The translations under genes were made by a program, and so were the position numbers. Positions 55,720 through 56,745 of a stretch of 64,000 nucleotides of DNA are shown here, piece after piece. Source of the DNA: an uncultured delta proteobacterium (GTDB lineage: Bacteria > Desulfobacterota > Desulfobacteria > Desulfobacterales > Desulfosalsimonadaceae); NCBI GenBank assembly GCA_963826785.1, contig CAWGYD010000001.1:96001-160000 (forward strand). Direction: 5' to 3'. How positions within the stretch are numbered: position 1 is the first letter of the stretch; each line of letters starts with the position of its first letter. The notes under the pieces were generated by a model. That model had not been told where the DNA came from, made no database searches, and worked only from the letters and a program-made list of their open reading frames with translations.

Positions 55720-55968
55720 TTACACGACAAACAGAAGGAGCAGGGCGATAACCAGCGAATAGATGCCGGTGGATTCGGAAACCGCCTGACCGACGAGCAT
55801 GGTCCGGGTCAACAGACCGGCTTCTTCGGGACGGCGTCCGATGGCTTCACATGCCTTGCCGGCGGCAAACCCTTCACCCACACCCGGTCCGATGGCGCCG
55901 AGACCCATTGCGATGCCAGCACCCAACATTGCCATTGCCCTGATAAATTCAGCACCCGTGATGTCCAT
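55720..55968 (-). CDS. atpE: ATP synthase F0 subunit c, Na+-type (E32/E65/S66/T67/Y70)
   Basis: GxGxGxG helix, RRPE loop and [11 protein letters not shown]. Confidence 0.95.
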
Positions 55969-56013
55969 GATGATACTTCTCCTTTATTGGTGGTTTAGAT
56001 GGTGATTATGCAA

Positions 56014-56745
56014 TTACACATTTAATGTCAACAGCAGCGCCACGACCAGCGCGTAAATACCGGTGGATTCGGAAACGGCCTGGCCCACCAGCATGCTCCG
56101 GGTCATCAGGCCGAGGGTCCGTGGATTCCGGGCCACGGCCAGAACCGCGTTTTCCGCGGCAAATCCTTCGCCGACGCCGGGTCCGATGCCGCCGAATCCC
56201 ATGCAGAGTCCGGCCCCCAGCATGCTGCAGGCCGGTATCAATGCCATTTCCGGCGGCACCGATTTGTACAGCAGCAAAAGGGAGATCAGAAAACCGTAAA
56301 TGGCGGTAGACTGGGCAACTCCGGCGCCAATCAGCATCAGTGTATTGAGTTGGCTGGCCACCTTGGGCTGCCGCCCGATGCCTGTGCAGGCACCGCCGGC
56401 GGGAAGTCCGGCACCGACACCGCATCCGATGGCGGAAAGTCCCATGGAAAAACCCGCCCCCAGATAGGCCCATGCCGTCAGGAGCGGTTTGCCTTCCATC
56501 GGTGAAAACAGCAGCAGCATGGCAATCACCAGGCCGAAAATACCGGCGGTTTCCGCCACGGCCTGTCCCACCAGCATGGTCCGGAGCACTTCACCCACCA
56601 GGTTGGGGCGAAAAGACAAGGTTTCATTTGCTTTGCCGGCGGTATACCCTTCGCCGATGGCGGCCCCGATGGCGGCGAATCCGACCGAAATTCCCGCCCC
56701 TACAAAGGAAGCGGCCTTGATCCATTCGATGGTTTCAAAAGTCAT
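56014..56745 (-). CDS. atpE: Triplicated ATP synthase F0 subunit c (3 hairpins, 243 aa)
   Basis: Three c-subunit repeats ending in [20 protein letters not shown] and [10 protein letters not shown]. Confidence 0.92.

What the first reader, a model, noticed from the sequence alone, without database searches (positions are those of the whole stretch)
55720..56745. Triplicated c subunit plus normal c subunit: predicted heteromeric Na+ c-ring with a silent hairpin
Seen: the 243-aa protein has three c repeats. Repeat 1 has E32/E65 with an altered site (ETAGIF). Repeat 2 has lost both carboxylates (A112, Q145). Repeat 3 has the full E193/E226-S-T-x-x-Y site. The 82-aa c has E32/E65/S66/T67/Y70. Known: this residue set is the two-carboxylate Na+ site of Fusobacterium nucleatum; Acetobacterium woodii builds a hybrid ring from a duplicated c1 with one Glu-to-Gln hairpin; a triplicated proteolipid occurs in the Methanocaldococcus jannaschii A-type enzyme. 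Inference: an F-type hybrid rotor containing a three-hairpin subunit that changes the ion/ATP ratio.
Basis: partly seen in the sequence, partly recalled or inferred. Interest (0 to 1): 0.75.

Follow-up and report, generated by a model that had tools for sequence, protein, structure and literature searches.

The report
Three-hairpin sodium ATP synthase rotor subunit
Next to a normal ATP synthase rotor gene, this sulfate-reducer-type bacterium carries a conserved gene for three fused rotor units whose middle one lacks the ion-carrying acids; it likely joins the normal units in one sodium-driven ring that would move one ion fewer per turn, and relatives carry versions with three to six units.

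Summary
The 243-aa protein has three c hairpins (Glu/Gln/Glu), and 27 of 27 distinct three-hairpin homologues keep that pattern. It is no assembly artefact. Its predicted fold overlays Acetobacterium woodii c1 (Z 18.4, 1.4 Å).

One correction: repeat 1 is not an 'altered site'. Na+ sites straddle two hairpins, and Thr67/Tyr70 of hairpin n track Glu65 of hairpin n+1 (568 of 576 junctions). Repeat 1's lost Thr/Tyr therefore belong to the one silent site. The half-sites at both chain ends are always kept, which argues for ring membership.

The gene belongs to a Desulfobacterota family with 3-6 hairpins and 1-5 silent ones. It sits in a separate Fo operon (I'-I-a-cN-c-b'-b). Relatives usually also carry an ordinary Fo operon; none was found in this assembly. 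Translation signals suggest about one copy per ring. Ring size, stoichiometry, ion and direction are untested.

This scan noted 3- and 4-hairpin relatives before on other DNA. Ten paper searches found no description, but the key review (Brandt & Müller 2015) was not readable. New variant of a known kind; interest 0.55.

The parts
56014..56745 (-). atpE-type gene for a 243-aa three-hairpin c subunit (c3)
   Evidence: AlphaFold model pLDDT 96.0, pTM 0.90, three helical hairpins
56494..56745 (-). repeat 1 (aa 1-84): carboxylates E32/E65 kept; hydroxyl half lost (T66, A67, F70), which faces repeat 2
   Evidence: E32, E65, A67, F70 in 27 of 27 distinct three-hairpin sequences
56257..56493 (-). repeat 2 (aa 85-163): silent hairpin, A112/Q145; keeps S146/T147/Y150, which would serve repeat 3
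   Evidence: Q in 27 of 27, T and Y in 26 of 27; pN/pS 0.18
56017..56256 (-). repeat 3 (aa 164-243): E193/E226 plus S227/T228/Y231, the hydroxyl half that would serve the next subunit
55720..55968 (-). atpE, 82-aa single-hairpin c with the two-carboxylate Na+ motif E32/E65/S66/T67/Y70
   Evidence: motif from PMC3692424 passages
55969..56013 (-). A+T-rich spacer with a strong ribosome-binding site (AAAGGAGA) before the single c
   Evidence: SD match longer for single c than for the fused gene in 75 of 76 loci
56747..57421 (-). atpB, subunit a (224 aa, R167 in RLFGN); its stop codon lies 1 nt before the c3 start
   Evidence: the only subunit a match in the assembly
57430..57882 (-). atpI (PF03899)
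57809..58141 (-). small atpI-like gene (PF09527); true start probably downstream of the listed ORF start
55234..55689 (-). atpF' (b', PF00430)
   Evidence: 27% identical to the b' at the F1 locus
54632..55237 (-). atpF (b, PF00430); last gene of the module, no F1 genes follow
   Evidence: 24% identical to the b at the F1 locus

Best explanation
The 243-aa protein is three fused F-type c hairpins with two intact Na+-type sites and one dead site, and it likely sits as roughly one copy among many single c subunits in a predicted Na+-coupled rotor ring that would carry one ion fewer per turn than it has hairpins. Shown: the frame, residue pattern, conservation, operon and fold. Inferred steps: (1) each site uses E32/E65 of one hairpin and the S66/T67/Y70 face of the hairpin before it, so repeat 1's acids are completed by a neighbouring subunit, the repeat 1|2 site is dead, the 2|3 site is intact, and repeat 3's hydroxyls complete the next subunit; (2) coupling to the atpB stop codon and a weak ribosome site make it at about the level of subunit a, while single c is made in excess; (3) the module (a, c3, c, b', b) docks on the one F1 encoded elsewhere, and in relatives it is an alternative to an ordinary, probably H+-type Fo; (4) with N hairpins per ring the ratio falls from N/3 to (N-1)/3 Na+ per ATP, and the enzyme works reversibly like the A. 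woodii enzyme.
For: Half-site rule: T67+Y70 in hairpin n agree with E65 in hairpin n+1 at 568 of 576 junctions in 149 proteins and 232 of 240 in 78 GTDB loci. Agreement with the hairpin's own E65 is 435 of 725, and with the previous hairpin 255 of 576. The last hairpin keeps S-T-Y in 149 of 149, including 82 whose own E65 is Gln. The first keeps E65 in 149 of 149, none with T67+Y70. Sites lie between adjacent subunits, with S66 and V63 from the neighbour (PMC3692424 passages). A. woodii c1 shows the same pattern: hairpin 1 has Phe at the Tyr70 position, hairpin 2 has Gln. The model overlays 4BEM chain J at Z 18.4, 1.4 Å over 162 residues. pN/pS is 0.16, 0.18 and 0.25 for the three repeats against 14 orthologues. 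The a-to-cN gap is 5 nt or less in 58 of 77 loci; the SD match is longer for single c in 75 of 76. The A. woodii enzyme, with nine c plus one c1, makes ATP from a Na+ gradient (PMC9171764 passages). An Rnf/Nqr-family (PF03116) match is in the genome.
Against: No expression, protein or reads were examined. One Glu-to-Gln change in a fused c10 ring of Bacillus PS3 abolished ATP synthesis (PMC8809890 passages). Relatives have up to five silent hairpins in a row (EQQQQQ in 26 of 149 proteins), hard to reconcile with a simple gear change during synthesis. The rule is only one-directional in 130 divergent cluster representatives: Y70 is followed by an acid in 58 of 60 cases, but 133 of 288 hairpins without Y70 are too (213 of 348 agree), so internal hairpins may lose Y70 for packing reasons as well. 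Eight junctions in each Desulfobacterota set have a Glu facing a degraded half. Family members are kin, so the counts overstate independence. c3 lacks the N-terminal extension of A. woodii c1, recalled as the feature that limits c1 to one copy. Ring size is unknown: this c has one more residue in helix 1 than the c11-forming Na+ subunits and aligns without a gap to chloroplast c.
Confidence: 0.62

Rival explanations
1. Same mixed ring, but the module works mainly or only as an ATP-driven Na+ pump. F1 drags the ring through the silent arc, and fewer ions per ATP allow a steeper gradient, while another Fo makes the ATP.
For: Runs of 3-5 silent hairpins are the commonest forms in the protein set (EQQQQ 56, EQQQE 33, EQQQQQ 26 of 149). 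By arithmetic, five silent hairpins span 150-180 degrees of a 10-12-hairpin ring. PS3 single E56Q blocks synthesis. 14 of 18 same-family genomes have at least two subunit a genes.
Against: This assembly has no other F-type a or c (87.8% complete), and neither do G019 (87%) and G021 (92%). One silent site is compatible with synthesis in A. woodii. The genome also has a V/A-type ATPase that could do the pumping.
Confidence: 0.2
2. The fused chain is mainly a structural part: a seed for ring assembly with AtpI, a setter of ring size, or the seat for gamma/epsilon. Loss of sites would be tolerated decay rather than tuning.
For: Repeats cluster by position in the chain (first, internal, last) in a tree with few columns. 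Hairpin number changes at least 9 times on a 75-row subunit a tree. Some distant three-hairpin proteins have no acid at all (5 of 39). Two atpI-type genes are in the operon.
Against: The silent position is a fixed Gln (27 of 27), not random decay, and exactly the residues needed for the neighbouring sites are kept.
Confidence: 0.1
3. The three-hairpin protein forms a ring of its own (for example four copies, 12 hairpins, 8 sites), separate from the ring of single c, as recalled for the triplicated Methanocaldococcus jannaschii subunit.
For: The end half-sites could be completed by another copy of the same chain. There is no N-terminal extension to block a second copy.
Against: Weak translation signal compared with single c (75 of 76 loci). 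A single c gene lies beside it in 77 of 78 loci, and the exception is cut by a contig end. Five- and six-hairpin relatives with one acid would give rings with only two or three sites.
Confidence: 0.06
4. Artefact: three separate c genes joined by missed stop codons, or a decaying pseudogene.
For: A nearby gene (ettA-like, 52642-54415) is split by a frame change near 53510, so the assembly may hold indel errors.
Against: The same open frame occurs in many independent genomes, including cultured strains (L010, L012). Repeat spacing is fixed at 79-83 aa. All repeats are under purifying selection.
Confidence: 0.01

Closest known systems
Acetobacterium woodii (and Clostridium aceticum) F1Fo subunit c1 of the F/V-hybrid Na+ rotor, PDB 4BEM chain J
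   Same: Best solved-structure match by sequence (E 5e-28) and fold (Z 18.4, 1.4 Å). Fused F-type hairpins, first with Glu and Phe at the Tyr70 position, second with Gln. Encoded beside a single-hairpin c (PMC7911925 passages).
   Different: Three hairpins instead of two. The silent hairpin has also lost position 32 (A112; c1 keeps Gln). Glu32 rather than Gln32 in the live sites. No N-terminal extension. Operon has no F1 genes and its own b'/b pair. Relatives run to six hairpins. Common ancestry of the fusion was not tested.
Fusobacterium nucleatum c11 ring, two-carboxylate Na+ site (PDB 3ZK1)
   Same: E32/E65/S66/T67/Y70 all present in the 82-aa c and across the repeat 2|3 and 3|next junctions.
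   Different: F. nucleatum has a uniform c11 ring. The window's c has one extra residue in helix 1, so 11 cannot be assumed.
Methanocaldococcus jannaschii triplicated proteolipid (A-type; recalled, no paper on it read)
   Same: Three fused hairpins with two acids. PMC9171764 passages mention archaeal c subunits of 1, 2, 3 or 13 hairpins.
   Different: That one is A-type and recalled as the only proteolipid of its enzyme. Here the repeats are F-type (PRK13471 178.5 bits against PRK06271 85.1), in an atpB-atpE-atpF operon beside a single c.
Duplicated ectopic Fo locus (a-c-b'-b) of Desulfococcus oleovorans, Koumandou & Kossida 2014 (PMC4154653)
   Same: A second, stand-alone Fo operon with a b'/b pair in the same bacterial group; its a and c group with Thermotogae.
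   Different: The passages and part 4 of 9 of the main text that I read do not mention a fused multi-hairpin c. I did not check that the D. oleovorans locus is orthologous to this one. Supplements were not read.

Membership tests
F-type ATP synthase subunit c | PF00137 hairpin(s), best scores to F-type models, gene between atpB and atpF | tested here: met
A. woodii-type hybrid-rotor subunit c1 | Fused F-type hairpins, one lacking the essential carboxylate | tested here: met
A. woodii-type hybrid-rotor subunit c1 | Encoded next to a single-hairpin c in an F-type operon | tested here: met
   PMC7911925 passages
A. woodii-type hybrid-rotor subunit c1 | Exactly two hairpins (four helices) | tested here: not met
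   three hairpins
A. woodii-type hybrid-rotor subunit c1 | N-terminal extension before hairpin 1 (its role in limiting copy number is recalled) | tested here: not met
   model residue 1 aligns to 4BEM_J residue 16; the atpB stop lies 1 nt before the start
A. woodii-type hybrid-rotor subunit c1 | Co-assembly with single c in one ring at fixed stoichiometry (9:1) | not testable with these tools
   only indirect support from half-sites and translation signals
Two-carboxylate Na+ c subunit (F. nucleatum type) | E32, E65, S66, T67, Y70 | tested here: met
Two-carboxylate Na+ c subunit (F. nucleatum type) | Measured Na+ coupling or Na+ protection from DCCD | not testable with these tools
   needs protein
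Archaeal/V-type multi-hairpin subunit K (M. jannaschii type) | Scores as subunit K and lies in an A/V-type operon | tested here: not met
   PRK06271 85.1 bits against cut-off 211; F-type neighbours; the genome's V/A operon is on contig C8 with its own one-hairpin K
N-ATPase (alternate F1Fo) | Single operon beta-epsilon-I-R-a-c-b-alpha-gamma (order from PMC4154653) | tested here: not met
   no F1 genes in the operon; TIGR03306 128.9 against 302.1, TIGR03322 64.6 against 130.85 for single c; N-type c of relatives groups apart

The most novel reading that the evidence does not exclude
Sulfate reducers carry an exchangeable Na+ Fo module whose gear ratio is written in one gene. A single fused subunit fills an arc of the rotor, keeps the half-sites at both ends, and silences one to five positions in between. 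Hairpins are gained and lost even between species of one genus. The three-hairpin form here is the mildest setting. The five- and six-hairpin forms would make the rotor coast through a third or more of a turn with no ion-driven torque, something no described F-type motor does, either making ATP at about two Na+ per ATP or acting as a one-way pump or brake on a shared F1.
Probability: 0.4. Interest if true: 0.8.

Novelty: new variant of a known kind. Interest (0 to 1): 0.55.

Why it matters
The ion-to-ATP ratio sets the energy budget of anaerobes that live near the thermodynamic limit. It is usually taken as fixed by the ring size of one gene product. Here 17 of 18 same-family genomes, and many other sulfate reducers, carry a natural series of fused rotor subunits with one to five dead positions. 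Energy models for these organisms could therefore be off. The series also makes an open question testable with cultured strains: how many empty positions a rotor can cross while making ATP, given that one blocked an engineered Bacillus PS3 ring but not the A. woodii ring. The half-site rule gives a way to count live sites in any fused c subunit from sequence.

Tried and rejected
Three separate genes or a missed stop: rejected on homologues. Raw reads and RNA runs were not available, so expression and the junction reads remain unchecked. N-ATPase and V/A-type K membership: rejected. Plasmid carriage: tblastn of 72,556 plasmid records gave no match. Looking for the ordinary Fo operon in this assembly: tblastn with relatives' ordinary a and c hit only the window operon and the V-type K. 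Flanking genes differ among six relatives and did not show a deletion scar, so loss versus assembly gap is unresolved. Promoter scan: 3 sites against 3.5 expected; 13 terminator-like sites against 6.7 expected, mostly inside genes, uninformative. The careful repeat tree did not finish; the quick tree (73 columns, 170 rows) is weak. One clade for all three-hairpin operons on the subunit a tree was rejected (AU p 6e-53, quick tree), so the three-hairpin state arose more than once or the gene moves between operons. Paper searches found no description of fused 3-6-hairpin F-type c subunits. Brandt & Müller 2015 and Matthies et al. 2014 are not held. The Foldseek-only PDB search was not run; the VIA second look was used.

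Full report
Observation. Pfam finds three PF00137 stretches in the 243-aa protein and one in the 82-aa protein. The repeats are 33-41% identical to each other and 51-62% to the single c. An AlphaFold model from a 71-row alignment has mean pLDDT 96.0 and three helical hairpins. Among the 994 chains compared, its best match is A. woodii c1 (4BEM chain J; Z 18.4, 1.4 Å, 162 residues, model 1-164 on chain 16-182).

It is a real, conserved gene. A protein search gave 2179 hits at E ≤ 1e-20 among 8000 scored candidates and listed 120; a search of longer proteins gave 42. A genome scan gave 160 loci, of which 80 were kept. I dropped P0140 (5' cut), P0151-P0162 (other lineages or archaeal K), L063 (cut) and L015 (two repeats). 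Of the 149 remaining proteins 18 are E/Q/E, and of 78 loci 15 are; the 27 distinct three-hairpin sequences all have Glu, Gln, Glu at position 65. Uncorrected pN/pS against 14 orthologues is 0.16, 0.18 and 0.25 for repeats 1-3, with pS near saturation, so the silent hairpin is as constrained as the others. Reads were not examined. A neighbouring ettA-like gene is frameshifted, but that cannot explain a frame shared with cultured strains (L010, L012).

It is the short end of a family. The same searches returned four-, five- and six-hairpin versions: EQQE 10, EQEE 3, EQQQQ 56, EQQQE 33, EQQQQQ 26, EQQQQE 3 of 149 proteins, and EQQQ 23 of 78 loci. Scoring favours long proteins, so these are not frequencies. 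Named carriers are mostly labelled Desulfobacterales, Desulfarculales or Syntrophobacteraceae. Among the 18 same-family genomes examined, 17 have a fused gene: three hairpins in 5, four in 7, five in 4, six in 1 (G022 from match positions only). Hairpin number changes at least 9 times on a 75-row quick tree of subunit a; Desulfacinum hydrothermale has three and D. infernum four. In a weak tree of single repeats, first repeats group together (SH-aLRT 99), last repeats group together (95) beside the single c (91), and this protein's repeat 2 groups with penultimate repeats (87). That fits gain or loss of internal hairpins; direction is not resolved. More distant fused c subunits exist in other lineages: 39 three-hairpin rows among 130 complete cluster representatives, 11 of them acid/none/acid.

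Where the ion sites are. In the F. nucleatum ring each site lies between two subunits, with Glu32 and Glu65 from one and Ser66 and Val63 from the adjacent one, and Tyr70 bonding to Glu65 (PMC3692424, passages; the passages do not say which subunit gives Tyr70). I tested this on the family. Thr67 plus Tyr70 in hairpin n agree with Glu65 in hairpin n+1 at 568 of 576 junctions, against 435 of 725 for the same hairpin and 255 of 576 for the previous one; in the loci it is 232 of 240. The last hairpin keeps S-T-Y in 149 of 149 proteins, 82 of which have Gln65 there. The first keeps Glu65 in 149 of 149 and never has Thr67 plus Tyr70. So repeat 1's ETAGIF is not an altered site for its own glutamates; it is the abandoned half of the dead site it shares with repeat 2. 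The chain has two live sites and one dead one, and both ends carry half-sites that only a neighbouring subunit can complete. This is the best evidence here for ring membership, though it does not say which subunit is the neighbour. Limits: members are kin; all 8 exceptions in each set are a Glu facing a degraded half; and in the distant set the rule holds one way only (58 of 60 Tyr70 hairpins are followed by an acid, but so are 133 of 288 without).

How many per ring. The order a-cN-c-b'-b, mostly behind two atpI-type genes, recurs across the 80 loci wherever the contig reaches. The fused gene starts within 5 nt of the atpB stop in 58 of 77 loci (1 nt here). Its Shine-Dalgarno match averages 3.2 nt against 5.8 for single c, which is longer in 75 of 76 (simple motif count, heuristic start choice). 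I infer output near that of subunit a, about one per complex. It lacks the N-terminal extension of A. woodii c1, recalled as what limits c1 to one copy. Ring size is open: this c has one more residue in helix 1 than the three c11-forming Na+ subunits and aligns without a gap to chloroplast c. For 11 hairpins the ratio would drop from 3.67 to 3.33 Na+ per ATP (arithmetic).

Which enzyme it serves. The operon has no F1 genes. The F1 genes lie on contig C5 behind a different b'/b pair, 24-27% identical to the window's. In 5 of 5 genomes reached through close homologues there is also an ordinary Fo operon whose c has Gln32, Glu65, Ser66 and Leu67; three of them show one adjacent alpha/beta pair (other matches not identified). 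Of 18 same-family genomes 14 have at least two subunit a genes; their second c lacks Thr67, and in 4 has Met32. Leucine at that place was called typical of H+ enzymes in PMC4046663 (passages), so I read the ordinary module as probably H+-type. Two Fo modules sharing one F1 is an inference. This assembly (87.8% complete, 11 contigs) has only the window's a and F-type c genes, plus a V/A-type ATPase and an Rnf/Nqr-family gene. If the ordinary module is truly absent, this one is the cell's only F-type Fo.

Direction. A. woodii's ring of nine c plus one c1 makes ATP (PMC9171764, passages), which supports a reversible enzyme for one silent site. Against it, one E56Q in a fused PS3 c10 ring made no ATP (PMC8809890, passages), and relatives with up to five silent hairpins in a row are easier to picture as pumps or brakes. 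I put the reversible mixed ring at 0.62 and the pump-only reading at 0.2.

Prior knowledge. Hybrid rotors are described for A. woodii and C. aceticum (PMC7911925 and PMC3604715, passages). A duplicated a-c-b'-b locus in Desulfococcus oleovorans was reported in 2014 (PMC4154653, passages and part 4 of 9), without mention of a fused c in what I read. A 2026 paper notes two to four atpE copies in Desulfatiglandales and could not resolve the ion (PMC13343851, passages and section 18); its supplement was not read and may bear on this. PMC5129741 and PMC7594442 (passages) added nothing. Ten searches found no description of 3-6-hairpin F-type c subunits. Brandt & Müller 2015, which surveys the distribution of hybrid rotors, and Matthies 2014 could not be read, so prior listing is quite possible. 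This scan's own notes already record three- and four-hairpin relatives in other genomes; one gave me the lead that the operon is a second Fo, which I then tested.

Verdict. The feature is real and works like A. woodii c1, but fails two of c1's defining features (hairpin number, N-terminal extension): a new variant of a known kind. Interest 0.55; the family-wide gearbox reading would deserve 0.8 at a probability of about 0.4.

Noticed in passing
window 52642-54415 (-): An ettA-like ABC-F gene is split by a frame change near 53510; both halves are 79-81% identical to an intact homologue in L098. Assembly indel or pseudogene.
   Followed up: partly
window 58271-59437 (-): A response-regulator receiver plus DUF4388 gene lies just upstream of the operon and also in L001-L009, L014, L048 and L066. 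It could regulate the module.
   Followed up: partly
G000:C8:417664-428282 (-): A V/A-type ATPase operon whose K subunit has a single hairpin match.
   Followed up: partly
L015:1690-2223: A record labelled Thermoplasmata archaeon carries this operon's upstream genes and a two-repeat frame, 90% identical in its best segment, with no single c seen. Probably misbinned bacterial DNA, with a break after repeat 2.
   Followed up: no
proteins P0217-P0310: A separate large group of about 320-aa four-hairpin c subunits with pattern E/Q/E/D(E) (44 of 130 rows are acid/none/acid/acid); one cluster is named Candidatus Dependentiae.
   Followed up: partly
proteins P0151-P0157, P0181, P0185, P0225, P0262: Other fused c chains: 5-6 hairpins all with Glu (one named Candidatus Bipolaricaulota), 7 hairpins (Gracilibacteria), 8-14 hairpins all with acids, and an independent five-hairpin E/Q/Q/Q/Q form.
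   Followed up: no
L103 / L006 (three-hairpin homologue): Repeat 2 has lost Thr/Tyr (QSPAIF) and repeat 3 has Asp32, so the 2|3 site may be decaying in this lineage.
   Followed up: no
window 56401-56403 (P115) and homologues: A proline at inner-helix position 35 occurs in 247 of 511 Gln hairpins and 0 of 220 Glu hairpins; it may reshape silent hairpins.
   Followed up: partly
window 56747-57421 (subunit a): Subunit a of fused-gene operons has invariant E106, D110, N153, E157 and Q222 (41 of 41) where ordinary modules have other residues; candidates for Na+ half-channel residues.
   Followed up: partly
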